A stretch of 64,000 nt of DNA, taken from the IMG/VR virus record IMGVR_UViG_2593339199_000003, positions 41,082 through 105,081 of that record; one strand, 5' to 3'. Shown here in pieces: positions 33,735-59,253 of this stretch. The DNA is from a virus (lineage: Duplodnaviria; Caudoviricetes). The notes under the pieces are model-generated. The model saw only the letters and a program-made list of their open reading frames with translations, was not told the DNA's origin and made no database searches. The translations under genes were made by a program, and so were the position numbers. Numbering within the stretch: position 1 is the stretch's first letter; each line of letters starts with the position of its first letter.

Positions 33735-33818
33735 GCTCATTCACCTCTTATTCCTTGTATTCAAAGACAGCACAAAGCCCAATGTCTGCAGCTGCCGAAG
33801 TTTGCAGGAGCTGCCATA

Positions 33819-37151: not shown

Positions 37152-40100
37152 TTACTTTGTCGGATAATGGAGATGGACGTGATTGTAGTGGTCCGCGCGC
37201 GTGGTGAAGGTGTTCTTCGGATACTTCTTCCGCATCTGATTCAGCAGATCATCGTCCGCATGCAGGATGCCATCGAAGCCTGCCTGGACCGCCAGGTCGA
37301 TTACCATTTCCACCATGTCCCGATCGGCGCTGTTCGTGAAGCGCAGCTTGCCGGCTACCACTTTCATGTCCGGCGTGTCGATATCGACTGCAAAGCCGGT
37401 ATTGTGCCAGCTCAGCGATCCGTCCGGTTTTCGATACGTCGAGGTAACCATGAGCTTCTTGCCGCCGCTTTTCGCCGTGTATACCGCGCCTAGTTGCTGC
37501 AGAAGATCTGCAGATGCTTGGCGGATCAGTGGTGCCTGCATGATCGGCTCATAGAAATTGACACTCGTTACCTTCGTCGTGCTGACCAGCACGCTCTTGG
37601 CTTGCTCAGGCGTCAACGAGTATTGTTTCATCCCGGCCGACCCAGTTGTCGTTGGCACTTCCGCGCTAGTCCCGTTCGTCCCACTCGATGCCTTCGGAGC
37701 GTCCGGAGTCGGCGGCAAAAAATTCGGATCGTGCTTGGCGATCTTGGCCATGATCTGCGCAATCCCGTTGTGCCAGTTCTTGTCGGAGGCATACTTAATG
37801 TTCATGCCAACAAGTGTTGAGCCATTGTAATACTTGCCGCCTGCGGTCAGGTAATTCGTCTTTATCTTATTGGCTGCATAGTAGATGCAATCCTGTGGCG
37901 TCGCAAACGTATAGGCGCCATCATATGGATTGCTATCGACCGCGCCGTAGCCAAAGAGGTTGTTCTTGTCCTTGAAGATCCTGGATGTCCCCCACCCTGT
38001 TTCCCACGCCGCATGCGCTGCGAGGTAAAGTCCGCTCATGACGCGAGCACTTCCCGCTCCGTCCCCTTGTAATGCGAGAGGCGATGGCGCTGAAGGAATG
38101 GAGATCTCAAGTTGCTTAAAGTATTTGCCGAGCCCCGCAAGACCGGTTCCTTCAAAGGCAGCATCGATTGCGTCAGCTGAAATGCCGCTCGGCTGATTGA
38201 GGTCCATTGTGTCAAAGCTGGTGCCGGCAGCGTAGCCAGATCCCCCGCTTGAGTCGCTGCCACCCAATGAGGACGTCAGGTCATCTGAGGTCAGAAGCGT
38301 TCGATCTTCTTCATAGGTTGGCTTCCGATTGAAATCCGCCTCTTGGCGTGCGACTTGTCCCTGCAGCTGCTTGGTCGCTTCGCCGACCTCGAAGTTATAC
38401 ACCTCGGCGGCCTGCGTATCCGCGATCACCTTGTAGCGATGCTTCTCGAAGAAGCTGGACGCAAACTGCGAGAAGTCAACGGAACTGCCGCTGGCCTGCA
38501 TGGAGAGATCGTCATCGGAGGCGATCGGCGCATACTGAGACGTGTCTGCGCCCAGGAATCCGGCGAGAACACCACCGACCACATCGTTAGTCAAGAACCG
38601 CTGCCAGAAGTCTGGAGAGTCGCCGATCACCGAGCCCATATGGCCATTGATGCCTGCAGAGAACTCGATGCCGTCGCGGCGGAGCACCGCAATGATGCAA
38701 GACTTCCGCGTGAACAAGAAGCGCTCGATGAACTCGGATATGCAGGCACAGGCAATCTCGACGACGGCCGTTTCAATCAGATAGGCTGCAATGCCAACCG
38801 GTCCGCCAAAAATAGCGAGCGCACCCGTGGCCATCTCCCATCCTCGCTTCCCCCAGCGGCCGGCCTTGGCCGTAACCTTAAAGCCAGTCGCCATCATTTT
38901 GCTTGCACCTGTCTTGAGTTTCGCGAGTTTGGCAGCGTCTATTTTATTGTAGCCCTTGAAACGCTTGTCGTACAAAGCTTCGTACAAGTTATCAAACAGC
39001 GCCTGAGCGTCTTTTTCGGTGAAATTCTCGATCTTAGACGCCATATCCTTGAGTATTCCGCTTTTTGTCCAGCGATTCTTCATTTCATCTGTAACAGGAT
39101 CGTAACGCCTTACTTCTTTGGTTACAGGATCAATCTCGACACGATAGTTCTTCGTTTCGATCGTTCTTGGTTTCGAAAGTTCCTCTCCTGCCGCCGTGGT
39201 CCATTCCATCAGCTTGGAGCCCACTTTGGTCGCATCGAACTTCCCTTTCATCGCTTCATAGCGCCGCTTGACCACGGACCAGATCGCATTCATGACTGGG
39301 AATGCGCCTTTATAGCCCATGTTCCGGAGGACAGCACGCAGCGTATACGACATAATCATGTAGGCGGCTGTGTGCGTCAGTCCCTGCAGCATCGTCATGA
39401 CATGACGATCGCTGTTGACGACGACGGCATCCGGCTTGATCATCGTGATGTAACCCGTCTCAAAATTCAGCAGATGGTTCACTTCACGAACCTCGATTGG
39501 CCCGCTCATATTATTGAACGTATCGTTGAAATAGCAGATGTCGTAAGGCTTCACGCTTGGATCACCCATGACCGTCAGATAGCCGTCGTACATTTGCTTC
39601 ACGTAATCCCGGAGGCCAGCTGCGGCGATCTTGATGGCCGTCCATTCATCGAAGTACCATTTCGGCAGCTTGTTCAGGAAGTGTCCGATGATCGGGATAT
39701 TCTCGATCAGCCGGATACCCTGCGCATTCAGCTGCGTATCAATCTGCACTGTCCGCTGCATCTCCGGCCAAATGTTCGTGTCTACGTAGATCGCCTGCGT
39801 CGTATCGAGGTTGCCCTCGTTGCTGTAGACGCCGACCGCGACCGTGTACATGTTCTCCGTCGTGGCGATGATCTGATTCTCGACGATGGACGTCCAGCTG
39901 TCATAGATGTGATACTGCCGGAATGGCTTCGACACGGCTTGGATATCATAGCTCGCCAGGTTCGTATCCTGCATGCTTTTCCCGCCGGCGACGTCGTAGG
40001 CATACGCAATCGGGAAGTATGGCTTGCCCATGAAAATCGTGTTGCGGAAGTCGTAGGGATGAACCGCGACTATGAAGTCCTCGCCCACCGCAGCGCAAAT

Positions 40101-43550: not shown

Positions 43551-43563
43551 AGGCTCTCATCTC

Positions 43564-46500
43564 CTACGAGTATTGCTGGACTTTATCTCGATACCAGATA
43601 CGATTCAGCCTGTTGGCGTTATCGGATTGGTTCACGGACATGTTAATCTTCCCGCCGTTATACCCGGATCGCTGCATAGCTTGTCCGAGCATCGGGCCAA
43701 AGTTCTGCGACCCGCTCCCCTGCGCGGAAATCTTAATATTAGCGCCGGAGTTGCCGGCATCAATCGGGGCCATTGCGGGAGCTGGTGTTCCGCCATATAG
43801 GGCTGCTGCATCTGCTCTCGCTTCAGTTTCAGACTCGGGATTGTAAGGCATTACAGGATCTTTATCATTAAATGTATTGTACCCCATTATACCTGCAAGC
43901 GCTAGACCTCCGATGAGCGCCGCCTTTTTATTTCTGGGCCCGTTCTTACCGTTAAAGAACTTGTCCATCGCCCCCGAAATCTTCTCGTAGGCCTTCGGGC
44001 CGAGCATCCCGCCGGTGCCGTCTTCGATCATCTCGGCAATGGTGCCGGCCGGTCCCTCAAGACGCTTGGTCATCGGCGAGGAGCTAAATGGCTCCAGCGG
44101 ATTCACCTTGCGGTATTCGGGCGTCAGGCTCGGTTGTTGCGGCCTGTCGATCGTCATTCCGCCTTCGCTACGCAGGATGTCTTGCAACGGATTCAGGAAT
44201 GGATTCGCCGTCGTGGCGTTCGGGTTGCGCCCCATAATCGTGTCTACGATTTCCTCCAGGCTGTGATCGCCCAGTCTCATGCCTTGGCTCGTGCCGGCCC
44301 GCAGCTCCGGATTGTCCATCCCCTTCTTCATAACATCGAGCGCGCGGGTTAGGTGCCCCATCGCCAGTTTCAGGTTGTCTCCGAATTGACCATTGAAGTA
44401 TTTGTTGTCCACCTCGATGGCCTGCTTCGTATTTCCTCGCTCAATGGCACTCAATAGATCGGCAGCGCCTGACTTCGTAAATAACCCCTGGCCGGTGCCG
44501 TGCTTGGAGGAGATCGTTAAGTCTTGCTCCAGGCCTTGCCCCAGTTTATAGATCTGCCCTTTGACTTCGGGGCTATCGGCGTAGAAGGTGTCCGCAACCT
44601 GACGCATCCGATAGTTGAGGTCCGATGCGCGGCCGATGAACTCCTTACCGGATTTCGCCATGATCTCCGGCAGCTGATTGGCCTCAAACCGATCCACGGA
44701 CTCAAGGCCTTTCTCTTTTCCGCTTCGGACATTGTAATCCTCGAAGATGCTTTTCAACGAGAACTCTCGAGAGCTATCAAGCTTGAGTTCGCCCTCGTTA
44801 AGCGCCTGCTCATACGTCATCGAGTTATTAAGCGCATTCTGGTAAGCCTGCTCGTGACGGGCCGCTCTTACCTCCCGCTGCTCAGCATGATTACGGGCCA
44901 GCTCCTCTTGCACGCCCTGATCGTGAATTGCGACGATGTGGTTGTAGTCACCGTCTGAGTCTTCCTTCAGCAAGGATGCAAGCAAAGACGTCGTATTATG
45001 GAAGCCGGCAGGCACTGATGGATCCATCTTAATTTTGACAGACTGGATGGCGTTCTCCGTAAAGGTTGGAAAGCGCAGGTCCGGCGCATAGAAATCTTTC
45101 TGAAGCGCTGGATTATGAAGTGCGCCTTCATTGCCGCCGAGCAGGTGCTCATAAATCCCCATCGTCTTCGCTTCGTTCGGGTTAATGAAGACCGTTTCAC
45201 CATCGAGCCGCATCGATTCTTCGATCGGCATGACCTTTGCAAGGCCGCTGGAGGATGTCGGCATATTCACCTTCAGTACGCTGTTACCCGTTTGATCACT
45301 GGATGCCGTCACGGCAGATACGGTTCCTGCGAAGTATTTGCCCAGGCTTCGATTCAAGCCCTGCATGGCCTTCACTTGCGCTGATTCGCCGTCCGCCTTG
45401 GTTACCGCCTCGGCGCGCCGATAGATGTCTGCAATGTGGCGCCGCATATCACGCAGCCAGATTTCTTCCCCTTTGCCGTCCGTCTTCGTGAACGGGATGA
45501 AGACCCGATCCATTTTACGGCCTTCCACTTCCGGCAGTATGGCTTCTTTCTGCCCGTTCACATGAATGTTCGGGAGCTCCATCCAGAAGCCATGGTAGTC
45601 ATTTTCACCGACCAGCTTCCGGACGTGTTCGTCATCCAGAATCGTGCGTGAGATCGTCGTGAGGTTCGTGTCCAACGTCGGCAGCGCATGGAAGTCGTGG
45701 AGGCGCAGCGTCCGGTTTTCGAAGTCAGGATCGAATCCTGGCCCTTCAACAGCACCGCGCAAAGCATTGACCATGCCGATCGCTTCCTGCAGCCGGCCGG
45801 TTTCTTTCGACTGATCGACAAGGTAACGGAACATGTGCTCCCTGGTCTTGTCGAGCCCTTTGACTTGCAGCATGCCTAGTTCACGGAAGCCGTACTTGAC
45901 GCCCTTCACATCGCCGCCTTCTTTATAGGCCACGTCGATCAAATTGCCGTTGTCATCCACATTGTACTTAAGGACGGCTCGGCGCTGCTCATCAACGACG
46001 GTCGAATAGTTTTGCACCTGCGCGATCCGCATAGCCTGCACACCTGTGATGTAGCCGGCGCTATTGGATTCGGCAAGCCCAAGCCCGAATCGATCGTTCA
46101 ACTTTCCGTAGAGCCGACCGAAGTTTCGGTAGTCCATACGCTTGTATTTCGCACTCACGTCATCGAACAGCAGCTCGCCATTCTTGTACGATGCATTCAC
46201 GCCGATCCGGCCCTGGTTGATCATCCGCATCGCTTCTTGGATATCTGCCTCATTAAGCACGTTCTCTTTTATCGCGTTCTGCATGGTGTACATCAGCTTG
46301 TTGGCCTGACCGCGCAGCGCGCCACCAAGGTCACCGTGCTTGCCGATATTCGGGTTGTAGACGACACCGACGTTTTCTTCGCCGAACAGCTCCTTCAAGA
46401 ACTCGGATCCGTAGCCGTATTGGCCGTTGTGCATGTTGCCGCCGATCGTGCCCTTCTCGATATCGAGGTAGACCTTGTTGGCCTGCTCGGTATATTCAAT

Positions 46501-49500: not shown

Positions 49501-50613
49501 GGAGCCTGCTGTGCTCATGCCGAGCGTGCGCCGCCATTCGGCAAGCGACCATGGGCCCTCCTCGAACGGAAGCGACGATGGACGGCCGTGCTGCTCGTGA
49601 AGTTTGATCGGATTACGCGCCACAGACTGCATCACGCGGTAATAGTCCATGTGATTCTGCGGCAACACCATTTCCTTTCCGGTGATGGATGAGAACCGGC
49701 GCATCCGCTCCAAGTCGAAGCTGTCGCCATTCATCGTGACGAAGTAGCTGTTCTTGTGCTTGCCGACGAACGCATTATACTCATCAATGGCACTCGCATA
49801 ATCTGCACCGTGCTTCACCAGATTCTTAATTCCATCTCGCATATGACGCAGATACTGCGTCTGGTTGCGCGTGATCTCATCGGTCAGAATGGTTTTGCCG
49901 CTCAAAACGGAGTTGATAGCCGAGTTATGCATCACTTCAGCCCCAAACGTAGCAGCACTGATTCCGTTACCGCCGATCGAGGAATACCGTATCAAGTCGA
50001 CGACTGTCCGCTGTTCGCTTGGATTCAGCAGTGCAAATTGCCCTATCTGCACCTTACGGATCAGCTTGTTAAGCTCACCTTGCATGTGTTTGTTTGGAGC
50101 AACCAGCTTATTGAATCGATGCGTCTTGGATTCGCCCGTGTATTGACCCCCGCGGTAATTAATGCCATTGGCTGAGATCTCTGAGATGAAGAAGTTCTTC
50201 GAGTCCGTATCTCCGAGCGTCTCGATGTCGAGGCCGAAGAACCGGCCAGGACCACCGCCTCCCCCCTTGGCGCGTCGTGCAAAATCGCGAAACGACTCGA
50301 TATGACGCTGCGCATCAATCGCGAACCCGCTATAAGGGTCAGCGCTGCCGACCGGGTTCAGGAAGCTCCAGATGTTGGTGCCGCCCATATTGATTACGCC
50401 GCTCTGGGTAGGCAGCGCTGGCATCTTATTGATGGCATCATTCAGCCGGATCAGAGATGGGTTGACGCCAGACCGCTCCGTGGCGGGCCGGGTTATCGGG
50501 TTGTATGCCGACAGCATGACCCGCTTATGGCGATCGGCCGGCACATATTCCAGGCCGGCTCCGATCCCCGCGTTAACATTTGAATAGAGTTGATCGTAAT
50601 TTGTTGTCGCCAT
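43564..50613 (-). CDS. Putative virion-associated single-chain two-barrel RNA polymerase with an N-terminal DEDDh exonuclease (2349 aa), in the tape-measure position
   Basis: DEDDh residues D129/E131/D300/H372/D377. Beta-like motifs YEQQMIFN, LDADG..PGDRLG, NK..EKGT, VVYNP, GVKYGFRE. Beta'-like RFPT..AIQ and DSDGD (1885-1889). C-terminal hydrophobic segment. Confidence 0.8.
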   Translation of the reverse strand: MATTNYDQLYSNVNAGIGAGLEYVPADRHKRVMLSAYNPITRPATERSGVNPSLIRLNDAINKMPALPTQSGVINMGGTNIWSFLNPVGSADPYSGFAIDAQRHIESFRDFARRAKGGGGGPGRFFGLDIETLGDTDSKNFFISEISANGINYRGGQYTGESKTHRFNKLVAPNKHMQGELNKLIRKVQIGQFALLNPSEQRTVVDLIRYSSIGGNGISAATFGAEVMHNSAINSVLSGKTILTDEITRNQTQYLRHMRDGIKNLVKHGADYASAIDEYNAFVGKHKNSYFVTMNGDSFDLERMRRFSSITGKEMVLPQNHMDYYRVMQSVARNPIKLHEQHGRPSSLPFEEGPWSLAEWRRTLGMSTAGSHSASFDTGMNGVGGLVANTWNYVDDLLGSTEVKADYKPRQLGQRTPYLMHSNKPLTTSDLLFATRGVRNYKGSQLDYQAELTEDGSYKIFRPGFNQNVINAESFYRVAGVRDLSSGGVPKWAIEFVNQDNPQLRSFVVREGENAAYEIADFYHRSFTPMSNISKKMRKQIQHLRESDLGRRRYESLFSLDKKSTAGFDAAKRMYANAAVYNKFTSGRWSAIEAEASRKLDELTMKNGQFMRSWTPEQYDQAREKIIGRLLKQRISRDEMKGMMNFNSLWDGTSKSFVYNPDEEKAFWKMLPRLMSEHSLYQGAIEAIDASGMEAEQKNIAWSLFHERVNESAGQHKTVRASLPYEQNGFQFRDRLTGKSVSVSLQNANNAINSFRSYVFKGTGDLAETEKAVERAERFKILLSSLKGSGIIDDDYVQGAITGIHDRKLTIPASIEQLALDLMEQQHLTIRRITEESLGRRESVERISKQAGQQLVKSAIKQTQGMRGYLLNNGFIPGPGTDIGDMFAKLDRQHKFTGMNPNNRQAIEGMMGTLKKMNPSLNMALSMNPEATQAFITMFHPDDSASVLRHMAGGASEAHPKAFEFTVPLINQQGTLVYGNRHFNATRDIIRVNGVNSEISTVEKMGHMLADPRLLDHRSEWNINTMAQQLKDGELSEATASARRLMNNFVSELSGVKRDFNENLLVTNTEADLLKQGLKYPAAAMIQQYYEDGTLTDRSFRNTDVILNAGKKQLIPFVKLDDLHDEAKFMIRRDMPEWLEKNGFGRGFYSSAKADVVARGGIGSIDARNLFAYGHFTVQNRDNSVQAMNSYRIDKDLEASLKEAEGVASTNHMVSTAVQRQHSKLYPYKPEVYVNTVMANQADVTRRVDDLIAQAQGDDNIRRILTEEGILRADGSVNVLRKPNVYEQQMIFNKDLVNRLQTKNYKYYRGDEIKWDGKYLDADGQLRRDMVISPGDRLGTRIVDGQRQSVFYDQKYAGRIASARSTDNAFAIEYTEQANKVYLDIEKGTIGGNMHNGQYGYGSEFLKELFGEENVGVVYNPNIGKHGDLGGALRGQANKLMYTMQNAIKENVLNEADIQEAMRMINQGRIGVNASYKNGELLFDDVSAKYKRMDYRNFGRLYGKLNDRFGLGLAESNSAGYITGVQAMRIAQVQNYSTVVDEQRRAVLKYNVDDNGNLIDVAYKEGGDVKGVKYGFRELGMLQVKGLDKTREHMFRYLVDQSKETGRLQEAIGMVNALRGAVEGPGFDPDFENRTLRLHDFHALPTLDTNLTTISRTILDDEHVRKLVGENDYHGFWMELPNIHVNGQKEAILPEVEGRKMDRVFIPFTKTDGKGEEIWLRDMRRHIADIYRRAEAVTKADGESAQVKAMQGLNRSLGKYFAGTVSAVTASSDQTGNSVLKVNMPTSSSGLAKVMPIEESMRLDGETVFINPNEAKTMGIYEHLLGGNEGALHNPALQKDFYAPDLRFPTFTENAIQSVKIKMDPSVPAGFHNTTSLLASLLKEDSDGDYNHIVAIHDQGVQEELARNHAEQREVRAARHEQAYQNALNNSMTYEQALNEGELKLDSSREFSLKSIFEDYNVRSGKEKGLESVDRFEANQLPEIMAKSGKEFIGRASDLNYRMRQVADTFYADSPEVKGQIYKLGQGLEQDLTISSKHGTGQGLFTKSGAADLLSAIERGNTKQAIEVDNKYFNGQFGDNLKLAMGHLTRALDVMKKGMDNPELRAGTSQGMRLGDHSLEEIVDTIMGRNPNATTANPFLNPLQDILRSEGGMTIDRPQQPSLTPEYRKVNPLEPFSSSPMTKRLEGPAGTIAEMIEDGTGGMLGPKAYEKISGAMDKFFNGKNGPRNKKAALIGGLALAGIMGYNTFNDKDPVMPYNPESETEARADAAALYGGTPAPAMAPIDAGNSGANIKISAQGSGSQNFGPMLGQAMQRSGYNGGKINMSVNQSDNANRLNRIWYRDKVQQYS
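43842..43855. promoter_or_regulatory. Intragenic copy of the recurrent palindromic motif (TGTAAGGCATTACA)
   Basis: 13/14 match to TGTAATGCATTACA; in an AT-rich patch with a minus-strand TATAAT at 43891-43886, about 290 bp upstream of the hub gene. Confidence 0.55.
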
Positions 50614-50628
50614 AGTTCACACCCTCGC

Positions 50629-53600
50629 TTACATCAAAGATCCCATATTGTTGCGCAGATAGTTATCAATTTCGCCGCTGCGATCTTGCTCGTACTGCAC
50701 GCCAACTCGTGTCGCAGCCCCGCTTGAAGGCGTCACGGTCACGTTGACGTTCTTCAGTCCTTGTCCTTGGAGCACGTCTTGGATATTGCGCTCCATTCGC
50801 TTGTAGCTGAAATCCGATTGCTGGTACATATTGTTGCCCTGGTTCGTCAGGTTCGGAGTCATGCGCGAGGCTTCCACGTCGTCCGGCCAGAAATTGAAGT
50901 CACTCAGATCCAGTTTCTGATTCTGCACGACCTTGAGCTTGATGCTCTCAAGATCGAAGTCCGGCCGCCAACCGGCCCAGTTTGCATCCGGCAGCGCGTA
51001 TTTCTGGAAGTAGTCTTCAAGTGGCGGCACGTATTCGTCCCCATAATCCCAAAGTGCTTTATAGATGCGCCTTTCATTTTCAGGCACAAGCTGCAGGATA
51101 CGTTCCCGGTCCCGCTCCGGTGCATTCACGAAGTCATCGAAGAACCACTTATCCTTGGTCGGAAATGCTCGGGCCACCTTCATCCGATCGTCGTATGGAT
51201 CGATCGCATATAAGGTTTCTTCACTTTGCTCTTTATATTGTAATGCCTGACGTACAATATCGGGAAGCATTATTTCGTCCCAGCCGCCCTCTTGCATGTC
51301 ATTCAGTTCTTGATTGATTGCTTTGCGGCGATCGACCCATCCATCCGGCTGTTTTAAATAAAGCTGTCGCTTTTCTTCGTTAAGCTGTTGGCGCCGCTCC
51401 TTTGTGTTCGCCTGCTTCTGCTCGATGTCATTGATGAAACCATCGACATCGTAGCCCGACGCTTCAGCTTCCCGCTTTGTCGCTTCATAGAGTCCGGAGT
51501 ATTTCATATACTTCAAGAGGTCGAAGTATTCATTGATCTCGTTCTCTTTGCGCCGGCGCTCCGGGATCCACGTCTCGCCGTTATGCGTGTATTCATAATG
51601 CCTTGCATACCCGTGGCCAAGGCCGCCAACCAGCGCGCCTATAATGGCGCCCGCTGCGACCCGCTTGCTGCCGCCGCCCCCGAGTACGCCCATAATGACC
51701 CCGCCGGTGATTCCGCCGCGCATCATCGATTCCAGTGTGTCGTGCCGGAAGGCCGACTGAAAGCCTGGAATTAGATAGTCGCTCGTCAGGAAGTTGCGCC
51801 AGGTCGCCCAGTCCTTGCCGTAAACTTGATCCCGCTCGTATTCTTCGAGTGCAGTGCGCACCTGCAGGAACTTCGTATTAAGCGGCGATTCGTAGTGGGC
51901 GATCGACTCCCACCGTGTGCCCTCTGCAATCTCGTCCGGCGTGAAGCGGGCGAAGACTGATGGTGCGGAGAAGTCCGTCAGGTTCTCCTTCATGAGGCCA
52001 CGGCGCAGGATGTCCTGGTTGATATTCTTGAGTCCATCGAAGACAACAGCGCGCATCGTGCCGTACTGGTCATCGGAGATCCGCTGGCTCTGGTCCGCAT
52101 TGATCCCCACCGTTACCTTATCCCCTACCCCGATGTACGAGTCGAGCACCCCGTGTGCTGCCGGCTTGTAATCCATACCGGCCAGCCGGATCGGCGTATC
52201 GCCGTATTCCTTTGTAAGGAAGGTGTAGTCGTCGAGCATCTTGGTGACCGTCACTTGCTCTTTTTCCAGTTCGGCGTATTTAAAGCGATACTCCGTGAAG
52301 TCGTATTTCTGTTTTCGCTTGGCCACCTGACGCTTGATCTCAGCGGCCTGCTTTCGGACCTCCGGATCTGTTTCATTGTCGACCACATAGTCCCGCCAAA
52401 ACTTGTACTCGTCGCTCCACGGCGCCACGTCGGCCAAGATCTTGAACTTGTCGAAGCTGCCGTAGCGTCCGGTCTGATCGGGATGAAGCGGGTTCAGCTT
52501 CTCATAGGCATCGCCAGGCAGCCGGTAATCCCCGTGGGCCACTTTTGTATAGGGATCGCCTACCTGGAAGTTGATGAAATAATCGCCCCCCGGCAACCAG
52601 TCCGGCATCGTGTTGCGAATCGGGTTGTATTCGTCCAGCTGGCCATCATCTGCGCGAATGAAACGACGCCCGATCTCGGAGATCGGTCCGCCAACAGATC
52701 CGAGGTTCATGCCCCAAAACCGGTTCGACAGGTTGTTCGCGGCATCCGCCTTCTGGATGACCATGTTACCGGTGTACGGGTCGTCGCCGGCCACTTCATC
52801 AGCAATCCACTTGTAGACGCCGAGCGGCTCCGCCCAGTTCTGCGCGGATTCCTGCAGCCGCCAGTTGATGCTGCTCGGATCCTTCATCTCCCGCAGCTTA
52901 CGGTTTCGAACTTCATTTCTGTAGGCGTACTCCTCCGCATGCATTGCGCGCGGCTTTGTCTCGACCATAGGCTCGTCGGTTCCGGCCATAGCAAACATCC
53001 GATCCATGCTGTAGCCTTCTTTGGCGATGTTGGCTGGCACGTACATGGCCTGGCCAGAGGTAATGTCCTGCGCCACGTAGGCGCCCGTTTGATTGCCCTG
53101 CTCATCCAGCTCGCTCGAGACGAAATACTTCACCGGTGCGGCAACGGCACCCGGATTCACATCACCGGTTCCGGCCCATTTGCCGCTATATGGCGCGCCG
53201 TAGCTGGTTGGCCCTGCATAGACGACATCCTCGGTCCGGCCTGCCGGCGACACCCGTGTGACGACCGGTTCAGTCGGACGATTGCCGAGCCCTTCATTCT
53301 CCTGCTCGATGAGTACCGGATCACCCCAGTAATCCGGATGCATGCGGCGGCTTGGTTTCACGAGCTGCCCGATTGTTGCATTGCCGATATCGCCAAAGAA
53401 CATTGTGTTCGGATTGAACAAGGAGCCGGTCATCATGTAAGGCCGGTCATAGTAATGCTTCTGCTCCCAATAGTATTCATTTCCGTCCAGCATGCGCTTG
53501 AATATCCCGAGTGGATTCTCGAAGGTCGGAAGGATATTCATCTCACCATAACGTTCTTCGCCGGTGAGGCTTGTATTGGAATACTCCCAGTCGCTCATCG

Positions 53601-56478
53601 CCAGGCGCCAGTCGTTCGGCCTGAACTCGGAAATGCGGTCGCCACGGAAAGCTGTCTTGGATCCCCATAGCCACCAACGACCTTTGCGCACTTCCTCAAC
53701 GCCATTTTGCAGGTAGTTCTGATATTCCTCGCCAGTGAAGGTGTCTTTCTCGTCAATCGGCGTGCCCGGTGCGAACAAGGCGCCTAAGACGTGGCCGGGC
53801 CCAAATTCCCCGACGCCGGGCAGATACCAATCCGGCATGGCGGCGAAGTGCTCAATGCCCGGATGCAGCATTTGGCGGTGCGCCAGCCCCTCGTTCGTGC
53901 CCATGGCATCACGTGTGAAGGCTGCCGAGAGATCACTGCGAGCCCGCATGTTCTGCCAGCGCGCCGTGATGCCCATGCCCGTATGCTTGTCCACCTCGTA
54001 GTCTGCATACTGGTAGCCTTCGTACGCCCCGTAGAGCGGCAGGAACCGTTTCAGGAACAAAGAGGACACCATCTTCAGCGGACTCGATAGGGAGTCATCT
54101 GAGAAGCCTAAGCCCCAGTCCCCGAGCGCATCCTGTAGACGGAACCATGGGTACTGACCGCCGAAGATCGAGAGCGTCGTCACATCTTCCATATTGCGAC
54201 GGCCGGTCGTCCAGCTGAGCTGCTTGGCGATGTCCTTAATCGTGCCAATGCCTTCCCAGCCATTGATCGCTTTGTTTACGTAGAGGAACTCGTCGTTGAC
54301 CGTGTTAGGCGGCTTCTGTCCGGTGAACTTTTCATAGATCGGGTTGTTGCGCTTCACGGCTTTCATGACGTCGCTTCGGAACTGCGATGAGAAGGCGCCC
54401 TGGCCAAGAATCATGTGATTGACTTCATCGACGGCAGCGGTTGGGTTTCCATAGGCATCTCCACCCGCCTCCCGAAGGAAGTGATAGTTCAGCAGAAAGT
54501 TGGCATTCTCCGCTTCATCGGTATGAATGTGCCGGCCTTCATACAGGTCATTGAAGACCTTGCGAAGGTTCAAGTTGCGCGGGCTTGTGCTGTTCGGCGC
54601 CGTGATCTGCCTGATAAGTTCCATGCTGACATCTCGCTTGATCTTATCCTGTCCGGTTTGAATGCGGGTGTGTTCACCAAGAATCAGGTTACTTTCACCG
54701 ATCGGACGCTTGGCGGCCAGGAATGAATCTGGGTCGCGGCTATAATTGCGCCACGTCCGCTTGATCGCGGTGTCACCTGGAATGTCAGTGGCTTCACCCA
54801 TGAACCTGAACAGCTTCATAATGTGCTCCTCATTCGAGAAGCTGATCTCGTTGTCATCCAGAAACTGCTGAATGTTGCCTGGCAAGTACGTGCGGATCCG
54901 ATTCAGTACGCGCGGGGAGAGCTCTTGCGTATACTTGTCGAAGTAGCCGCGCATCGAACGCAAGCTCTCCTCATCCACACCTCGGTTCATTGCCTCGGTC
55001 ATGATATTGCGTTCCCACTCTGGGCTCCAGAGCTTGGTTACCTGACTTAGCAGTTTGGGCCCGACAGCATCCTTATCCTGCTTGCCGATGTCGAACAGTT
55101 TTCGGATCGCGCCGCGCTTATCCTCCTGCGTTGTCATGAGACCGCCGGTGCTGCGGTGAAGCTTGGCGATCGTGCCGAAGCGGGAGGACGTCGCAAACAT
55201 CTTACGCTTCTGGTTGAGAACGGTCAGCTCCTTGAGCGGATCGTTAATAGCCGCCACATCATACAGTGGCACGAAGTCGCCATTGATATAGACGAGGTTC
55301 TGGTCCAGCGTCGAGTTGATATCCTGCCCCATCTGAGCCTGCAAGCTCTGGTGCCGAGTGCCGCGGCGGACAACGCGGAAGCTGCCGATCTCACGCGCCT
55401 CCCGGATGTTCAACTGGTCACGTAGGTGCATGAGGCCACCCGGGACGGTGTTGGCTGCCTTTTTCTTGAGCCCATGCATCATCTCGTCGAATACTTTATA
55501 GTCGGTGTAATCGACGATGTTGCCGGCAGCATCTTCTTTAACAAACAGATTCGAGTCGAAGATTTGCTTGCGGAAGTCGCTACTGCGTTTGATCATGTGC
55601 TCGAGGTCGACTCGCGTGGCATCATCCAGATTGATCCGGCCAGAACTGTGCATGGCAAGCACGTCCTCAACGGTCGCCTGACGCTGGCCGCGGATGTATT
55701 TCTTATGAGCCCATTCTTTTCGCACGACGCCGCCGGCATTCTCTGCAGCCTTTGTCGTGAGTTTATCCTGCATGCGTGATACGGCTGCCTTGTACTCACT
55801 AGAGTCTTTGTAAACCGTATTGCGGTGAACGCCGCGGGCTTGCTCGGCGAGCTGAATCAGGTTGTCTTCGATGCCCTGCTGCCGCAGGAGTCCACGGAAC
55901 TGTTCGTCGGAAAAGTTATGAAGAAAGTCCATGTCATCCAGGTTGCCAACCTTGAACGCTTCACGGACGCGGTGCGCATCTTCCCGGCCGGCCAATTGGC
56001 CGAGCTCCAGCATGACGTCCCGATGCCGCAGTTCGCTCTGGATGCCATAAGGCACAAGCTCTTTGACGTTCTGATTGACCTGACGGATATACCGCTGCAG
56101 GTCGTACTCGCGCGCGCTCGAGAAGTCATTCAGCCGCTGCTTGCGATCATCGACGATCCGGCGACGCCGGTCCAAAAAACTGCGCCGCATCCGGTCGAGC
56201 CGCGTGCTGCTCAGATCCTGCAGGAGCGTACCTTCATGATCGAGCGTCTCGCGGAGCGCCATGAGCGAGCCCTTTCCTTCTGTCCCGATGAAACGGGCAG
56301 CTTGCCTGAGCGCACCGGTTCGGTGCAAGACAGCAGCAGCGCCAATGCCGATAGCCGCTTTGACGAGCAAAGATCGGGCCGGCGATGTATCTTCATTATC
56401 CGATAAGAAACGAGTGAAGGGACGATCATCCGTCCCGTAGAATTGTGCATATTTGGATTGTCCGTTTTCATCGGCCAT
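50629..56478 (-). CDS. Tape-measure/ejection-like protein (1949 aa) with a degenerate SNase-like domain and hydrophobic segments
   Basis: First giant gene after the chaperones; largely helical; Gly-rich hydrophobic hairpin GGITGGVIMGVL...AAGAIIGALVGGLG; IRLAGMD...DQYG...NINQDILRRGL. Confidence 0.7.
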   Translation of the reverse strand: MADENGQSKYAQFYGTDDRPFTRFLSDNEDTSPARSLLVKAAIGIGAAAVLHRTGALRQAARFIGTEGKGSLMALRETLDHEGTLLQDLSSTRLDRMRRSFLDRRRRIVDDRKQRLNDFSSAREYDLQRYIRQVNQNVKELVPYGIQSELRHRDVMLELGQLAGREDAHRVREAFKVGNLDDMDFLHNFSDEQFRGLLRQQGIEDNLIQLAEQARGVHRNTVYKDSSEYKAAVSRMQDKLTTKAAENAGGVVRKEWAHKKYIRGQRQATVEDVLAMHSSGRINLDDATRVDLEHMIKRSSDFRKQIFDSNLFVKEDAAGNIVDYTDYKVFDEMMHGLKKKAANTVPGGLMHLRDQLNIREAREIGSFRVVRRGTRHQSLQAQMGQDINSTLDQNLVYINGDFVPLYDVAAINDPLKELTVLNQKRKMFATSSRFGTIAKLHRSTGGLMTTQEDKRGAIRKLFDIGKQDKDAVGPKLLSQVTKLWSPEWERNIMTEAMNRGVDEESLRSMRGYFDKYTQELSPRVLNRIRTYLPGNIQQFLDDNEISFSNEEHIMKLFRFMGEATDIPGDTAIKRTWRNYSRDPDSFLAAKRPIGESNLILGEHTRIQTGQDKIKRDVSMELIRQITAPNSTSPRNLNLRKVFNDLYEGRHIHTDEAENANFLLNYHFLREAGGDAYGNPTAAVDEVNHMILGQGAFSSQFRSDVMKAVKRNNPIYEKFTGQKPPNTVNDEFLYVNKAINGWEGIGTIKDIAKQLSWTTGRRNMEDVTTLSIFGGQYPWFRLQDALGDWGLGFSDDSLSSPLKMVSSLFLKRFLPLYGAYEGYQYADYEVDKHTGMGITARWQNMRARSDLSAAFTRDAMGTNEGLAHRQMLHPGIEHFAAMPDWYLPGVGEFGPGHVLGALFAPGTPIDEKDTFTGEEYQNYLQNGVEEVRKGRWWLWGSKTAFRGDRISEFRPNDWRLAMSDWEYSNTSLTGEERYGEMNILPTFENPLGIFKRMLDGNEYYWEQKHYYDRPYMMTGSLFNPNTMFFGDIGNATIGQLVKPSRRMHPDYWGDPVLIEQENEGLGNRPTEPVVTRVSPAGRTEDVVYAGPTSYGAPYSGKWAGTGDVNPGAVAAPVKYFVSSELDEQGNQTGAYVAQDITSGQAMYVPANIAKEGYSMDRMFAMAGTDEPMVETKPRAMHAEEYAYRNEVRNRKLREMKDPSSINWRLQESAQNWAEPLGVYKWIADEVAGDDPYTGNMVIQKADAANNLSNRFWGMNLGSVGGPISEIGRRFIRADDGQLDEYNPIRNTMPDWLPGGDYFINFQVGDPYTKVAHGDYRLPGDAYEKLNPLHPDQTGRYGSFDKFKILADVAPWSDEYKFWRDYVVDNETDPEVRKQAAEIKRQVAKRKQKYDFTEYRFKYAELEKEQVTVTKMLDDYTFLTKEYGDTPIRLAGMDYKPAAHGVLDSYIGVGDKVTVGINADQSQRISDDQYGTMRAVVFDGLKNINQDILRRGLMKENLTDFSAPSVFARFTPDEIAEGTRWESIAHYESPLNTKFLQVRTALEEYERDQVYGKDWATWRNFLTSDYLIPGFQSAFRHDTLESMMRGGITGGVIMGVLGGGGSKRVAAGAIIGALVGGLGHGYARHYEYTHNGETWIPERRRKENEINEYFDLLKYMKYSGLYEATKREAEASGYDVDGFINDIEQKQANTKERRQQLNEEKRQLYLKQPDGWVDRRKAINQELNDMQEGGWDEIMLPDIVRQALQYKEQSEETLYAIDPYDDRMKVARAFPTKDKWFFDDFVNAPERDRERILQLVPENERRIYKALWDYGDEYVPPLEDYFQKYALPDANWAGWRPDFDLESIKLKVVQNQKLDLSDFNFWPDDVEASRMTPNLTNQGNNMYQQSDFSYKRMERNIQDVLQGQGLKNVNVTVTPSSGAATRVGVQYEQDRSGEIDNYLRNNMGSLM

Positions 56479-56514: not shown

Positions 56515-57297
56515 TCAATCATACTCGCCTCTCAGTGATTCTTCGGCTTTAAACCATGCCAATTCTGGGAAGACTTCTTTCATGCTGGTTGGTTGATCGA
56601 GGTTAATGTTTCGCCCCTCTGCCTGAGACAGCATTCGCTCCACATCTTCCTTGGACAGATCGCCTTGCTTCTGCGCCGCCGGCTGACGAGGTACAGGCTG
56701 CTGCGGGTTGGCAAGTGGCGACATCTCCGCGCGCTGCTGCGGTGTGATAAATTGCGGCGGCTCTTGCGGCATAGGCGCCCCCGGCTCATCCATCTCCGCC
56801 ACAGCATGCGCCTGTGCAATCTGATCAATCGGCATGAGCGGCACGCCTTTCAGATTCACAAGCACCCATTCCGCCCTTGCCAGATAGAACATCATCTTTT
56901 TGACGGTCCAATTCTGAATATGCTCGATCGAGAACTCCGGAAACGCCTCGTGAATAATGACGTCCGCCTGATAATCGAAAATCTGCATATCCTGCCGGTA
57001 TTGGTCCAGCAGCCCTTTGGCCTGACCTTCTTGCAAACCGGACGCATCCAGTATGAAATTACTAATCGTCTCTGCAAGTCCGGCCACATTGTCGAGGAAG
57101 TCGTAGTCCGCCGGGTACACGACGGCCGCCTTGCACATCGCCTCCTGAACGTCGCTCAACTGTTCATTCTCGGCCAGGATAGCCTTGTACTCCTCCCGTC
57201 CGATAACACGGAAGACGAATTGCTGCTCCAGCAAGTTTAGCAGGAACACTTCTTCATAGATGGATTTGTAGTGCATTACGAGATCTTCTGTCAGCAC
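56515..57297 (-). CDS. Tail assembly chaperone-like protein 2 (260 aa)
   Basis: Lies between the tubes and the tape measure; N-terminal domain paralogous to the 151-aa neighbour (FRVIGREEYK, VVYP, AGLAETIS..I...SG). Confidence 0.7.
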   Translation of the reverse strand: MLTEDLVMHYKSIYEEVFLLNLLEQQFVFRVIGREEYKAILAENEQLSDVQEAMCKAAVVYPADYDFLDNVAGLAETISNFILDASGLQEGQAKGLLDQYRQDMQIFDYQADVIIHEAFPEFSIEHIQNWTVKKMMFYLARAEWVLVNLKGVPLMPIDQIAQAHAVAEMDEPGAPMPQEPPQFITPQQRAEMSPLANPQQPVPRQPAAQKQGDLSKEDVERMLSQAEGRNINLDQPTSMKEVFPELAWFKAEESLRGEYD

Positions 57298-57814: not shown

Positions 57815-57840
57815 GGTTGATCCCCTTCCCTGGTCTTCAT

Positions 57841-57868
57841 TGTAATGTATTACATTATCTTCATTATA
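57841..57868 (-). promoter_or_regulatory. -10 box (TATAAT) followed by a palindromic operator-like motif
   Basis: TATAAT at 57868-57863; TGTAAT-AC-ATTACA at 57854-57841 with perfect 6-bp arms. Confidence 0.6.
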
Positions 57869-57878
57869 CTTGTTTTCC

Positions 57879-59185: not shown

Positions 59186-59209
59186 CTATCTCACCTCGCT
59201 TTGGTATGT

Positions 59210-59238
59210 AAAAATGGGGCAGCCGCGAAGCTGCCCCA
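59210..59238 (-). terminator. Intrinsic terminator after the major tube gene
   Basis: TGGGGCAGC-TTCGCG-GCTGCCCCA-TTTTT. Confidence 0.85.
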
Positions 59239-59253
59239 CCTGGCCCAATCGCT

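What the first reader, a model, noticed from the sequence alone, without database searches (positions are those of the whole stretch)
37152..56478. Three-gene, ~6400-aa 'breach, cross, transcribe' module in place of a simple tape measure
Seen: between the chaperones and the spike lie three giant genes. The first is a helical protein with hydrophobic hairpins and a nuclease-like fold (1949 aa), the second an exonuclease-RNAP with a C-terminal hydrophobic helix AALIGGLALAGIMGY (2349 aa), and the third a hub with wall hydrolases and a hydrophobic segment GALAIFGGPVGIAAYLI (2132 aa). The first two both end in a similar N-V/M-x-V strand plus short helix. Inference: the hub digests the wall, the hydrophobic segments form a membrane conduit, and a membrane-tethered RNAP begins host-independent transcription and might pull DNA in, by analogy with transcription-driven entry in T7 and N4. 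The similar C-termini may be a tube-loading signal.
Basis: inference. Interest (0 to 1): 0.75.

Follow-up and report, generated by a model that had tools for sequence, protein, structure and literature searches.

The report
Giant exonuclease-RNA polymerase in phage tail
In the tail gene block of a giant Bacillus-type phage, the gene that sits where the tail ruler is expected encodes a very large, previously unlabelled RNA polymerase joined to an exonuclease, which the virus probably injects to start reading its own genes.

Summary
The three giant minus-strand genes exist as described: 1949, 2349 and 2132 aa. They lie between tail chaperone-like genes and baseplate genes of a 0305phi8-36-like jumbo myophage. 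Gene 1 is the gp145 family, with a staphylococcal-nuclease-like fold and a Gly-rich hydrophobic hairpin. Gene 3 is the gp147-type hub, with a glucosaminidase and a weak LAS-peptidase-like end.

Gene 2 is the main result. Pfam, PHROGs and PDB sequence searches do not recognise a polymerase in it. An AlphaFold model of residues 1000-2199 (pLDDT 83, pTM 0.82) is a single-chain beta-like plus beta'-like two-barrel RNA polymerase (Z 15-17 to beta subunits, 10-12 to beta'/Rpb1). R-x-P and DSDGD are invariant in 30 relatives. A DEDDh exonuclease lies at residues ~100-400. The last ~140 aa resemble the C-terminus of the mass-spectrometry-proven virion protein gp146.

The polymerase signature is in the equivalent gene of 40 of 74 related loci, but not in 0305phi8-36 itself.

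The closest precedent is the tape-measure-fused virion RNAP of Thermus phage P23-45, so the kind is known. This is a new, unannotated variant in contractile-tailed phages. Packaging, membrane tethering and DNA pulling remain inference. The claimed similarity of the two C-termini is not supported.

The parts
57359..57898 (-). tail chaperone-like gene (179 aa), paralogue of the next gene
   Evidence: phrog_29362 5.5e-14; same position as 0305phi8-36 gp143/gp144 'tail chaperonin'
56515..57297 (-). second tail chaperone-like gene (260 aa)
   Evidence: phrog_29368 5.8e-13 and phrog_29362 8.3e-08
50629..56478 (-). gene 1, P0001, 1949 aa: gp145-family giant virion protein
   Evidence: tblastn to Moorella phage MTATph1 (89% coverage, 31% id), Bacillus phages WH1, Edson, KLEB27-3 and 0305phi8-36 ORF145 'virion structural protein, identified by mass spectrometry'; no Pfam or PHROG hit
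56326..56382 (-). gene 1 N-terminal hydrophobic segment (residues 33-51)
   Evidence: Kyte-Doolittle scan, coordinates checked
51940..52278 (-). gene 1 staphylococcal-nuclease-like (SN/OB) fold, residues ~1401-1513
   Evidence: AF2 model mbf1faa9b66ea (pLDDT 74.7); Foldseek PDB SNase 4.9e-4, TM(target) ~0.6; VIA-align Tudor-SN/SNase Z 9.7-10.5, rmsd 2.0-2.8, 85-104 aligned
51568..51744 (-). gene 1 Gly-rich hydrophobic helical hairpin, residues 1579-1637
   Evidence: KD scan; two helices in the model; weak matches to membrane helical hairpins, Z ~5
43564..50613 (-). gene 2, P0002, 2349 aa: exonuclease + single-chain two-barrel RNA polymerase + C-terminal hydrophobic helix and small alpha/beta module
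49414..50316 (-). gene 2 DEDDh (DnaQ-like) 3'-5' exonuclease domain, residues ~100-400
   Evidence: D129, E131, N295, D300, H372, D377 conserved in >=90% of 30 relatives; profile vs PDB: family-B DNA polymerase exo domain 1.6e-5, DEDDh, ExoI, TREX2; Pfam RNase_T in 5 of 14 and RNase_H_2 in 9 of 14 members
45799..47616 (-). gene 2 RNAP beta-like half, residues ~1000-1605
   Evidence: VIA-align to E. coli beta 455-1302: Z 17.3, ~400 aligned, rmsd 3.8-4.7; phiKZ nvRNAP 7ogp_C Z 16.0, AR9 nvRNAP 7s00_C Z 15.5; invariant E1287, K1380, E1386, K1387
44176..45750 (-). gene 2 RNAP beta'-like half, residues ~1622-2146
   Evidence: VIA-align to human Pol I A190 Z 11.8 (392 aligned), Drosophila Rpb1 Z 11.5, Sulfolobus A' Z 11.2, M. 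tuberculosis beta' Z 9.8; Foldseek T. aquaticus beta' 4xln_D 5.5e-6
44947..45075 (-). catalytic signature R1847-F-P1849 ... D1885-S-D-G-D1889
   Evidence: all six residues invariant in 30 sequences; coordinates checked
43879..43923 (-). gene 2 hydrophobic helix AALIGGLALAGIMGY, residues 2231-2245
   Evidence: top 15-residue KD window of the protein, 1.77; conserved as GGLALGG..GYN
43567..43758 (-). gene 2 C-terminal strand-helix-strand-helix module, residues 2286-2349
   Evidence: D2331, N2332 and W2340 invariant in 15 sequences; HMM of the last ~150 aa hits 0305phi8-36 gp146 (4.9e-8) and Moorella CDS0031 (5.3e-9); hhalign Prob 68%, E 4.6e-5
37152..43550 (-). gene 3, P0003, 2132 aa: gp147-type baseplate hub with lytic domains
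   Evidence: phrog_20474, 1200 bits over residues 7-1685; position and annotation of 0305phi8-36 gp147 'baseplate hub protein'
38712..38828 (-). gene 3 hydrophobic stretch, residues 1575-1613
   Evidence: KD 1.83, checked
37740..38030 (-). gene 3 endo-beta-N-acetylglucosaminidase domain, residues 1841-1937
   Evidence: PF01832 9.4e-12; PDB 7pj3 2.8e-19
37155..37673 (-). gene 3 C-terminal possible LAS-type metallopeptidase, residues 1960-2132
   Evidence: only sub-threshold Pfam hits: HH_signal 0.0026, Peptidase_M15_4 0.033, VanY 0.044; no PDB sequence hit

Best explanation
The region is the inner-tail and hub part of the tail module of a 0305phi8-36-like jumbo myophage of Bacillota.

Gene 2 occupies the slot annotated 'hypothetical tape measure protein' in 0305phi8-36. 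It is not a plain ruler. It is a 2349-aa polyprotein-like enzyme made of: an N-terminal DEDDh 3'-5' exonuclease; a poorly understood middle part; a complete single-chain RNA polymerase of the two-barrel class, with a beta-like half followed by a beta'-like half and an R-x-P...DSDGD active site; and a short C-terminal hydrophobic helix plus a small alpha/beta module.

The C-terminal module is the only part shared with the mass-spectrometry-proven virion protein gp146. I read it as the element that places the protein in the tail or virion.

Most likely mechanism, as inference: gene 2 is assembled into the particle with gene 1 and the hub, is expelled at sheath contraction ahead of or with the DNA, refolds, and transcribes the first phage genes independently of the host polymerase. 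This is what P23-45 gp96, N4 vRNAP, crAss gp66 and the phiKZ vRNAP do. Gene 3 opens the wall with its glucosaminidase. Gene 1 (SN-like fold, hydrophobic hairpin) is a co-ejected conduit or DNA-handling protein.

Shown: the genes, their order, the domain folds, the conserved catalytic residues, the family's distribution and the shared C-terminal module. Inferred: packaging, ejection, activity, timing of transcription, and the roles of the exonuclease and the hydrophobic segments.
For: Synteny with sheath, tube, chaperone and hub genes.

The AF2 model of residues 1000-2199 has pLDDT 83.1 and pTM 0.82. Foldseek returned at least 500 PDB hits at E<=1e-3, and the 50 rows shown are all RNA polymerase entries. 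VIA-align gave Z 17.3 to E. coli beta. An independent search of 48,161 chains ranked beta-like subunits at Z 13-16, beta'/Rpb1-like at Z 9.8-11.8, and the single-chain enzymes QDE-1 at 10.5, P74 gp62 at 9.1 and P23-45 gp96 at 8.0.

R1847, P1849, D1885, D1887, G1888 and D1889, together with K1380, K1387 and E1287, are invariant in 30 sequences down to 22% identity.

The C-terminal module is homologous to gp146, which the GenBank note says was found in virions by MS. Bacillus phage WH1 gp095, annotated 'virion structural protein', is a full member: exo 3.7e-19, rnap 1.1e-27, cterm 8.7e-18.

The signature R-x-P-(20-60)-D-x-DGD is in the giant gene after gene 1 in 40 of 74 loci, against 0 of 324 other ORFs of >=300 aa.

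A separate YonO/RdRP-type gene (PF05183) exists in 5 of 10 related records that have an exo-RNAP gene 2, which fits a virion plus non-virion pair.

Experimental precedent: the P23-45 TMP-fused vRNAP (PMC10770324; sections 6, 12, 13 read).
Against: There is no direct evidence that this protein is in particles or is active.

0305phi8-36 gp146, the Paenibacillus plasmid copy, L031 and L032 keep the architecture without any DxDGD motif. The polymerase is therefore dispensable for tail assembly, and a virion role cannot be carried over from gp146 beyond the C-terminal ~140 aa.

A folded ~130-kDa polymerase core cannot sit folded in a tail tube lumen (general knowledge), so packaging would need an unfolded state or a capsid location.

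Sequence-only tests did not see the polymerase. These were Pfam, PHROGs, phmmer and a profile against PDB, and hhalign against two YonO-like proteins. The assignment rests on one predicted model plus motifs.

Own record: no second RNAP was found, but it is only 53% complete. Of 8 complete or near-complete relatives, 4 lack a PF05183 hit.
Confidence: 0.6

Rival explanations
1. The hydrophobic segments of genes 1-3 form a trans-envelope conduit. The RNAP stays tethered to the membrane by its C-terminal helix, and transcription pulls the 200-kb genome in, as in T7 and N4.
For: A conserved hydrophobic helix follows the polymerase. Genes 1 and 3 have hydrophobic hairpins. Chaban et al. propose transcription concomitant with translocation through a TMP pore for P23-45.
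Against: Nothing here tests membrane insertion. The helix is only 15 residues and Gly/Ala-rich. Relatives without a polymerase signature keep the same helix and architecture, so entry does not depend on the polymerase. Hardies et al. [quoted passage not shown]
Confidence: 0.15
2. Gene 2 is mainly a structural tail-lumen protein (ruler or plug). The enzyme domains are passengers with a minor role or a role unrelated to early transcription, for example attacking host nucleic acids, as in 'polyvalent' injected proteins.
For: The slot was assigned to the tape measure in 0305phi8-36 from tail length. Gene 1 and gene 2 lengths co-vary across 55 distinct loci, Spearman 0.71, not corrected for relatedness. 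A BFVD relative of gene 1 is named 'large polyvalent protein associated domain' protein.
Against: At least ~1100 residues fold as a compact polymerase and ~300 as an exonuclease, which leaves little room for an extended ruler. Active-site residues are invariant at 22% overall identity, which indicates selection on catalysis.
Confidence: 0.1
3. Gene 2 is a non-virion polymerase that merely lies in the late tail operon, for example a late-gene or replication-priming enzyme that is never packaged.
For: No packaging data exist for this family. Two-barrel RNAPs of phages are often non-virion, for example YonO and P23-45 gp64.
Against: It is tightly embedded (13-15 nt gaps) between two structural genes whose 0305phi8-36 homologues are structural: gp145 was found in virions by MS and gp147 is annotated as the baseplate hub. 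It shares the C-terminal module with virion protein gp146. An enzyme made late and not packaged would have no obvious template programme.
Confidence: 0.1
4. The polymerase fold is a decayed relic without activity.
For: No sequence library recognises it. Some lineages have lost the motif altogether.
Against: R-x-P, DxDGD and the lysine pair are invariant in 30 of 30 sequences. The signature is kept in much more distant gene 2 forms of 2585-3102 aa.
Confidence: 0.05

Closest known systems
Thermus phage P23-45 gp96, tape-measure-fused virion RNA polymerase (Chaban et al. 2024, PMC10770324)
   Same: It is a two-barrel RNAP with a DxDGD motif inside the giant protein encoded at the tape-measure position. 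A hydrophobic segment lies in the same protein. Some relatives have a second, separate phage RNAP. It is invisible to ordinary sequence searches.
   Different: gp96 belongs to a siphovirus, has the polymerase at the N-terminus of a 5002-aa protein, and is followed by ~3800 aa of TMP with a metallopeptidase. Here the phage has a contractile tail and the polymerase is in the C-terminal half, preceded by a DEDDh exonuclease and followed by only ~200 aa. The structural match to gp96 is weak (Z 8.0, 350 aligned), against Z 15-17 to beta subunits.
Bacillus phage 0305phi8-36 gp145-gp146-gp147 (Thomas 2007; Hardies 2007, PMC2147016)
   Same: Same gene order. Genes 1 and 3 are homologous. Gene 2 is in the same slot and has a homologous C-terminal ~140 aa.
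   Different: gp146 has no DxDGD or DxDxD motif, no exonuclease HMM hit and no detectable similarity outside the C-terminus. It was called a tape measure from tail length.
phiKZ / AR9 non-virion multisubunit RNAPs and cellular beta/beta' subunits
   Same: These are the best structural matches of the two halves. The beta-like half aligns over about 400 residues of E. coli beta 455-1302.
   Different: Those enzymes are split into several subunits. Here both halves are in one chain, beta-like first, and fused to an exonuclease and a tail-associated C-terminus.
YonO / PF05183 RdRP-like single-chain phage RNAPs, QDE-1, crAss-like gp66
   Same: They are single-chain two-barrel polymerases of phages. 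QDE-1 aligns across both halves (Z 10.5, 439 aligned).
   Different: PF05183 does not hit gene 2. Relatives carry a separate PF05183 gene elsewhere. hhalign to two YonO-like proteins was not significant. crAss gp66 did not appear in the 50 rows shown, which excludes nothing.

Membership tests
Two-barrel (double-psi beta-barrel) RNA polymerases | beta'-type barrel carrying R-x-P and the metal-binding DxDGD/DxDxD loop | tested here: met
   R1847, P1849 and D1885-S-D-G-D1889 are invariant in 30 of 30 sequences. The same signature occurs in 40 of 74 loci against 0 of 324 control ORFs. The motif definition comes from PMC2919709 passages.
Two-barrel (double-psi beta-barrel) RNA polymerases | second, beta-type barrel supplying two conserved lysines and an acidic residue | tested here: inconclusive
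   The beta-like fold is matched at Z 15-17. K1380, K1387 and E1287 are invariant. Their residue-by-residue equivalence to Rpb2 K979, K987 and D837 was not checked, because no residue-level structural alignment was available.
Two-barrel (double-psi beta-barrel) RNA polymerases | overall fold similar to solved RNAPs over both halves | tested here: met
   Foldseek returned at least 500 hits at E<=1e-3. The wide VIA search gave beta-like at Z 13-16 and beta'-like at Z 9.8-11.8. The model has pLDDT 83.1.
Two-barrel (double-psi beta-barrel) RNA polymerases | template-dependent RNA synthesis | not testable with these tools
   This needs biochemistry.
Tape-measure-fused virion RNAP (P23-45 gp96 type) | polymerase lies in the protein encoded at the tape-measure slot of the tail module | tested here: met
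   Gene order is sheath, tube, chaperones, gene 1, gene 2, hub. One gene (gene 1) lies between the chaperones and gene 2, as in 0305phi8-36.
Tape-measure-fused virion RNAP (P23-45 gp96 type) | protein present in virions | not testable with these tools
   Support is indirect only: the C-terminal module is shared with MS-proven gp146, and WH1 gp095 is annotated 'virion structural protein' on an unknown basis.
Tape-measure-fused virion RNAP (P23-45 gp96 type) | long TMP portion with metallopeptidase and membrane domains after the polymerase | tested here: not met
   Only ~200 residues follow the polymerase. They hold one 15-residue hydrophobic helix and a ~64-aa module. Pfam finds no peptidase.
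Tape-measure-fused virion RNAP (P23-45 gp96 type) | specific structural kinship to gp96 | tested here: inconclusive
   8h2m_A scored Z 8.0 with 350 aligned and rmsd 4.5, lower than cellular and phiKZ-type subunits.
DEDDh / DnaQ-like 3'-5' exonucleases | Exo I (DxE), Exo II (NGxxFD) and Exo III (Hx4D) motifs on an RNase H-like fold | tested here: met
   D129/E131, N295/D300 and H372/D377 are conserved in >=90% of 30 sequences. The profile hits the family-B polymerase exonuclease domain at 1.6e-5, plus DEDDh, ExoI and TREX2. Pfam RNase_T matched 5 of 14 members, best 9.1e-6. The fold itself was not modelled.
Classical tail tape measure protein | mostly extended alpha-helical protein whose length sets tail length | tested here: not met
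   This was tested for residues 1000-2199 of gene 2, where the model is a compact mixed alpha/beta enzyme with pTM 0.82. Residues 1-999 were not modelled, and tail length is unknown.
Staphylococcal nuclease (SNase, PF00565) for gene 1 residues ~1401-1513 | SN-type OB fold | tested here: met
   Foldseek gave 4.9e-4. VIA gave Z 9.7 to SNase (104 aligned, 21% id) and Z 9.8-10.5 to Tudor-SN domains.
Staphylococcal nuclease (SNase, PF00565) for gene 1 residues ~1401-1513 | catalytic Ca-binding and general-base residues | not tested
   PF00565 does not hit gene 1. By recall only, the positions of the general base and one arginine look substituted. The best matches include non-catalytic Tudor-SN scaffolds.
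gp27-type baseplate hub with tail lysin (0305phi8-36 gp147) | homology to the gp147 family plus a peptidoglycan hydrolase domain | tested here: met
   phrog_20474 scored 1200 bits. Glucosaminidase PF01832 scored 9.4e-12 and PDB 2.8e-19. The T4 gp27-like domain itself was not tested here; it is taken from Hardies 2007.

The most novel reading that the evidence does not exclude
The gene 2 slot of this large clade of jumbo myophages is a cargo-delivery position. A conserved C-terminal helix-plus-module loads an exchangeable giant enzyme body into the tail.

In most lineages that body is a hitherto unrecognised family of single-chain beta-beta' RNA polymerases. In the Bacillota branch it carries its own DEDDh exonuclease. 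That exonuclease would resect the first DNA end to enter the cell and so hand the polymerase a single-stranded template. Transcription would then start during injection, without promoter melting and without host factors.
Probability: 0.2. Interest if true: 0.85.

Novelty: new variant of a known kind. Interest (0 to 1): 0.7.

Why it matters
Virion RNA polymerases are known from N4, crAss-like, phiKZ-like and, fused to a tape measure, P23-45 phages. This finding would add a widespread lineage of contractile-tailed jumbo phages of Bacillota. Family members are seen in Oceanobacillus, Alicyclobacillus and Parageobacillus genomes, in Bacilli MAGs and in cultured Bacillus phage WH1. More distant relatives may include Acinetobacter phage ME3.

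Public databases call the family 'hypothetical protein' or 'DNA polymerase III epsilon-like'. No sequence library recognises the polymerase.

It also questions the long-standing 'tape measure' label of the gene 2 slot in the 0305phi8-36 group. It offers a compact single-chain polymerase whose beta-like half matches multisubunit beta subunits better than any solved single-chain enzyme matches the model. A polymerase-exonuclease fusion is one I have not seen described; this rests on recall plus the search.

A cultured member exists, so the prediction can be tested directly.

Tried and rejected
Sequence routes to the polymerase all failed:
- Pfam and PHROGs on the whole protein.
- phmmer against PDB.
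- The 30-sequence profile against PDB, which found only the exonuclease.
- hhalign against the YonO-like proteins of 0305phi8-36 and of relative G001: E 0.29 and 0.16. The second aligned the DxDGD loops but is not significant.

Other searches with gene 2:
- tblastn of gene 2 against 50,697 phage records found nothing at 1e-5, although WH1 gp095 is a member by HMM.
- BLASTP to gp146 and to Moorella CDS0027 was not significant.
- The word-indexed protein search found only 2 relatives. The exhaustive search found 40.
- Genome-contig scans with gene 2 found nothing (after an alignment too diverse to seed).

Other negative results:
- Shared C-terminal signal of genes 1 and 2: rejected by hhalign.
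- SLT-type lytic domain in gene 3 residues 560-820: no support.
- ESM Atlas for gene 1: only a 0.77 SNase lead, below the tool's own reliability line. The fold was later supported.
- Earlier findings of the scan: none.

P23-45 gp96 and crAss gp66 did not rank among the top matches. The family is not excluded by that.

Literature searches for a description of this family found none. In the P23-45 paper's supplements, '0305phi8', 'Moorella', 'exonuclease' and 'tape measure' had no occurrence, and the passages shown for 'Bacillus' were phiKZ-related phages.
Full report
**Observation**

The window is one strand-coherent block of phage structural genes at 50-58% GC. On the minus strand, reading 5' to 3', it holds:
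- a tail sheath gene (60077-62875; phrog_16991, 5.3e-182);
- three tube-like paralogues;
- two chaperone-like paralogues that share phrog_29362;
- ORFs of 1949 aa (50629-56478), 2349 aa (43564-50613) and 2132 aa (37152-43550);
- small baseplate genes.

The gaps between the three giants are 15 and 13 nt. Each start has a purine-rich Shine-Dalgarno-like motif upstream.

The window is bases 41082-105081 of a 105,081-base virus record that IMG/VR classes as a provirus. CheckV estimates it to be 53% complete. Its other part carries DNA polymerase III alpha, ribonucleotide reductase, DnaB, a primase and a ligase.

**What phage this is**

Gene 1 finds 8 phage records by tblastn:
- Moorella phage MTATph1 (89% coverage, 31% identity);
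- Bacillus phages vB_BceM_WH1, Edson and vB_BauM_KLEB27-3;
- 0305phi8-36 (two records);
- Acinetobacter phage ME3 (two records), over a short stretch.

In 0305phi8-36 the order is sheath gp139, tube gp140-142, chaperonins gp143/144, gp145, gp146 ('hypothetical tape measure protein'), gp147 ('baseplate hub protein') and gp148 (P2 gpV-like). The GenBank notes say gp145 and gp146 were identified in virions by mass spectrometry. The window repeats this order.

Hardies et al. 2007 (PMC2147016, passages read) assigned the tape measure to gp146 mainly from tail length. They noted that only the last 60 residues align with the prophage-like relatives. They also described a separate YonO/RdRP-like polymerase, orf99.

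**Gene 2: sequence searches**

Pfam and PHROGs give nothing for the whole protein. phmmer against PDB also gives nothing. BLASTP to gp146 is not significant, and the only suggestive alignment is at the C-terminus.

A word-indexed search found two relatives. An exhaustive HMMER search with residues 1150-2349 against 1.84 billion representatives found 40 proteins at E<=1e-3. Thirty of these are at E<=1e-30, and almost all are 2160-2730 aa long.

In an alignment of 30 of them (22-59% identical to the window protein), the invariant columns include R1847, P1849, D1885, D1887, G1888, D1889, K1380, E1386, K1387 and E1287. Columns conserved at >=90% include D129, E131, N295, D300, H372 and D377.

The first set is the R-x-P...DxDGD signature of the beta'-type double-psi barrel, plus a lysine pair of the kind the beta-type barrel supplies. 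The definition of the eight universal residues is from PMC2919709 passages. The second set is Exo I/II/III of DEDDh exonucleases.

**Gene 2: structure**

I folded residues 1000-2199 with that alignment. The result has mean pLDDT 83.1 and pTM 0.82.

- Foldseek against PDB returned at least 500 hits at E<=1e-3. The 50 rows shown are all RNA polymerase entries: the second-largest (chain B) subunits of Pol I, II and III, archaeal and vaccinia enzymes, and T. aquaticus beta'.
- VIA-align on Foldseek's list aligned model residues 1-606 to E. coli beta residues ~455-1302 at Z 17.3, with about 400 residues aligned, rmsd 3.8-4.7 and 12-14% identity.
- An independent VIA search of 48,161 representative chains put phiKZ nvRNAP chain C (Z 16.0), AR9 nvRNAP chain C (15.5) and bacterial, Pol I, plastid, Pol IV, ASFV, vaccinia and Pol III beta-like subunits (12.8-15.2) on model residues ~1-600.
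- The same search put human Pol I A190 (11.8, 392 aligned), Drosophila Rpb1 (11.5), Sulfolobus A' (11.2) and M. tuberculosis beta' (9.8) on model residues 623-1147.
- Single-chain enzymes aligned across both halves: QDE-1 Z 10.5, P74 gp62 Z 9.1 and P23-45 gp96 Z 8.0.

So residues ~1000-1605 are beta-like and ~1622-2146 are beta'-like, in one chain.

Against this, the 30-sequence profile searched against PDB sequences sees only the exonuclease. hhalign against two YonO-like proteins is not significant. The polymerase call therefore rests on the predicted fold and the motifs.

**Gene 2: exonuclease and C-terminus**

A 14-sequence profile of residues ~100-400 hits the exonuclease domain of family-B DNA polymerases (1.6e-5), DEDDh proteins, exonuclease I and TREX2. 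Pfam RNase_T matches 5 of 14 members and RNase_H_2 matches 9 of 14. The window's own copy matches none.

The C-terminus holds the protein's most hydrophobic 15-residue window, at 2231-2245. After it come a proline-rich linker and a strand-helix-strand-helix module with invariant D2331, N2332 and W2340.

An HMM of the last ~150 residues hits 0305phi8-36 gp146 (4.9e-8) and Moorella phage CDS0031 (5.3e-9). hhalign of the full family profile against gp146 aligns only this part (Prob 68%, E 4.6e-5).

**Distribution**

A scan of IMG/VR with a gene 1 alignment gave 74 loci with 10 kb of flank.
- The giant ORF after gene 1 has both exonuclease and polymerase HMM hits in 19 loci: L009, L010, L012-L022 and L024-L029. 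Two more loci are cut after the exonuclease.
- The pattern R-x-P-(20-60)-D-x-DGD is in that ORF in 38 of 68 loci where an ORF of >=300 aa starts within -150 to +800 nt of the end of the gene 1 match. That is 33 of 59 distinct sequences.
- Two more loci, L048 and L056, have the pattern in a giant ORF that starts about 900 nt further on. The total is 40 of 74.
- Among the other 324 ORFs of >=300 aa in these loci, none has the pattern.
- These distant forms are 1546-3102 aa long, and the HMM mostly does not see them.

Without any DxDGD are 0305phi8-36 gp146, L031, L032, the Paenibacillus sp. EC2-1 plasmid copy and many of the shorter forms. In Moorella phage the gene is interrupted by an insertion sequence. 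Its first piece has the exonuclease at residues 846-1206 and no polymerase motif.

Cultured Bacillus phage WH1 gp095 (2515 aa, annotated 'virion structural protein') is a full member with RYP...DHDGD.

Sources name family members 'hypothetical protein' (Alicyclobacillus shizuokensis, Parageobacillus galactosidasius, Oceanobacillus profundus, Bacilli MAGs) or 'DNA polymerase III epsilon subunit-like'.

**A second polymerase**

PF05183 finds a separate ~1130-1280-aa ORF in relatives G001, G002, G003, G004 and G008. It finds none in G005, G006, G007, G009 or WH1. That is 5 of 10 records, or 4 of 8 that are complete or at least 97% complete. It finds none in the window's own incomplete record.

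**Gene 1**

There are no Pfam or PHROG hits. I folded residues 750-1949 with 24 sequences: pLDDT 74.7, pTM 0.72.

Foldseek hits staphylococcal nuclease (4.9e-4, TM ~0.6 on the target, 18-21% identity). The wide VIA search gives Tudor-SN and extended-Tudor SN-like domains and SNase itself at Z 9.7-10.5 on model residues 652-764. The Gly-rich hairpin (model residues 830-888) resembles membrane helical hairpins only weakly, at Z ~5.

Model residues 1-650 found no solved match of Z 5 or more, but that part is barely tested. BFVD returns family members and a 'large polyvalent protein associated domain' protein at 2.8e-38. Whether the SN-like domain is catalytic was not tested.

**Gene 3**

phrog_20474 scores 1200 bits over residues 7-1685. 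Glucosaminidase covers residues 1841-1937. There is a hydrophobic stretch at 1575-1613. The C-terminal 173 aa give only sub-threshold LAS-clan hits.

**The shared C-terminal signal**

By eye, both gene 1 and gene 2 end with strand, D-[RN]-[STA], helix. Profile-profile comparison of the two C-terminal alignments shows nothing. I do not accept this part of the observation.

**Mechanism**

The best-supported reading is that gene 2 is a tail-module, virion-delivered RNA polymerase for the first phage transcripts, as shown experimentally for P23-45 gp96. In that system the TMP-fused enzyme transcribes pre-early genes, one of which encodes a second polymerase (PMC10770324; abstract and sections 6, 12 and 13 read).

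For this reading: the position, the conserved active site, the C-terminal module shared with a proven virion protein, and the frequent second polymerase gene.

Against it: there is no direct packaging or activity evidence. Relatives keep the architecture without the polymerase. A folded core would not fit a tube lumen.

Conduit formation, membrane tethering and DNA pulling are untested inference. The co-variation of gene 1 and gene 2 lengths (Spearman 0.71, n=55, not corrected for relatedness and including some broken ORFs) hints that both are constrained by one dimension, such as tail length.

**Novelty**

Six literature searches and passages of the jumbo-phage survey PMC7824862 mention only the YonO-like enzyme for this lineage. 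I found no description of a polymerase in the gene 2 slot.

The kind, a tape-measure-slot virion RNAP, is known. The family, the beta-beta' single chain, the exonuclease fusion and the contractile-tail context are new as far as these searches reach. The bioRxiv supplements are closed. The P23-45 supplements that were searched had no occurrence of '0305phi8', 'Moorella', 'exonuclease' or 'tape measure'.

Noticed in passing
window 10371-24170 (-): Two further giant genes of 1744 and 2851 aa. The larger has PA14, Big_1 and Big_2 domains. A 1161-aa VWA-domain protein lies at 1601-5086. These are probably fibre or adhesin proteins, like the curly-fibre genes of 0305phi8-36.
   Followed up: partly
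window 26921-34496 (-): A run of five genes share N-terminal modules (phrog_31511, phrog_34867). Three of them also carry F5/8 type C (discoidin) domains. They look like a cassette of exchangeable receptor-binding proteins.
   Followed up: no
L001 21721-29077 (Moorella phage MTATph1): The gene 2 equivalent is split by an insertion that carries a transposase and an IstB-like ATPase gene. The C-terminal module survives as a separate 313-aa ORF, and the exonuclease sits at residues 846-1206 of the first piece.
   Followed up: partly
L088-L116 (Acidobacteriaceae and other MAG contigs): A ~110-150-aa piece of gene 1 (residues ~1240-1390, the NTMPDWLPG...GDPY...RLPG region) recurs at 36-51% identity in many Acidobacteriaceae genomes. 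Some contigs hold several copies, sometimes in opposite orientation. What these loci are is unknown.
   Followed up: no
L119 15746-20557 (Acinetobacter phage vB_AbaM_ME3, ME3_36): The 1603-aa 'hypothetical protein' in the gene 2 slot has REP...GGDHDQD and a C-terminal hydrophobic segment. The polymerase-in-tail theme may therefore reach phages of Gram-negative hosts.
   Followed up: partly
window 58685-59982 and 37152-43550; L001: Library labels mislead here. The tube paralogues hit a PHROG called 'major head protein' (phrog_9206), and the hub hits one called 'endolysin'. The Moorella phage record repeats both labels.
   Followed up: no
G000 and relatives: IMG/VR calls the window's record a provirus. 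One relative is a 206-kb Paenibacillus plasmid, another has direct terminal repeats (G002), and the Parageobacillus copy lies on a 1.77-Mb contig. The lifestyle, whether lytic, plasmid-like or integrated, seems to vary.
   Followed up: no
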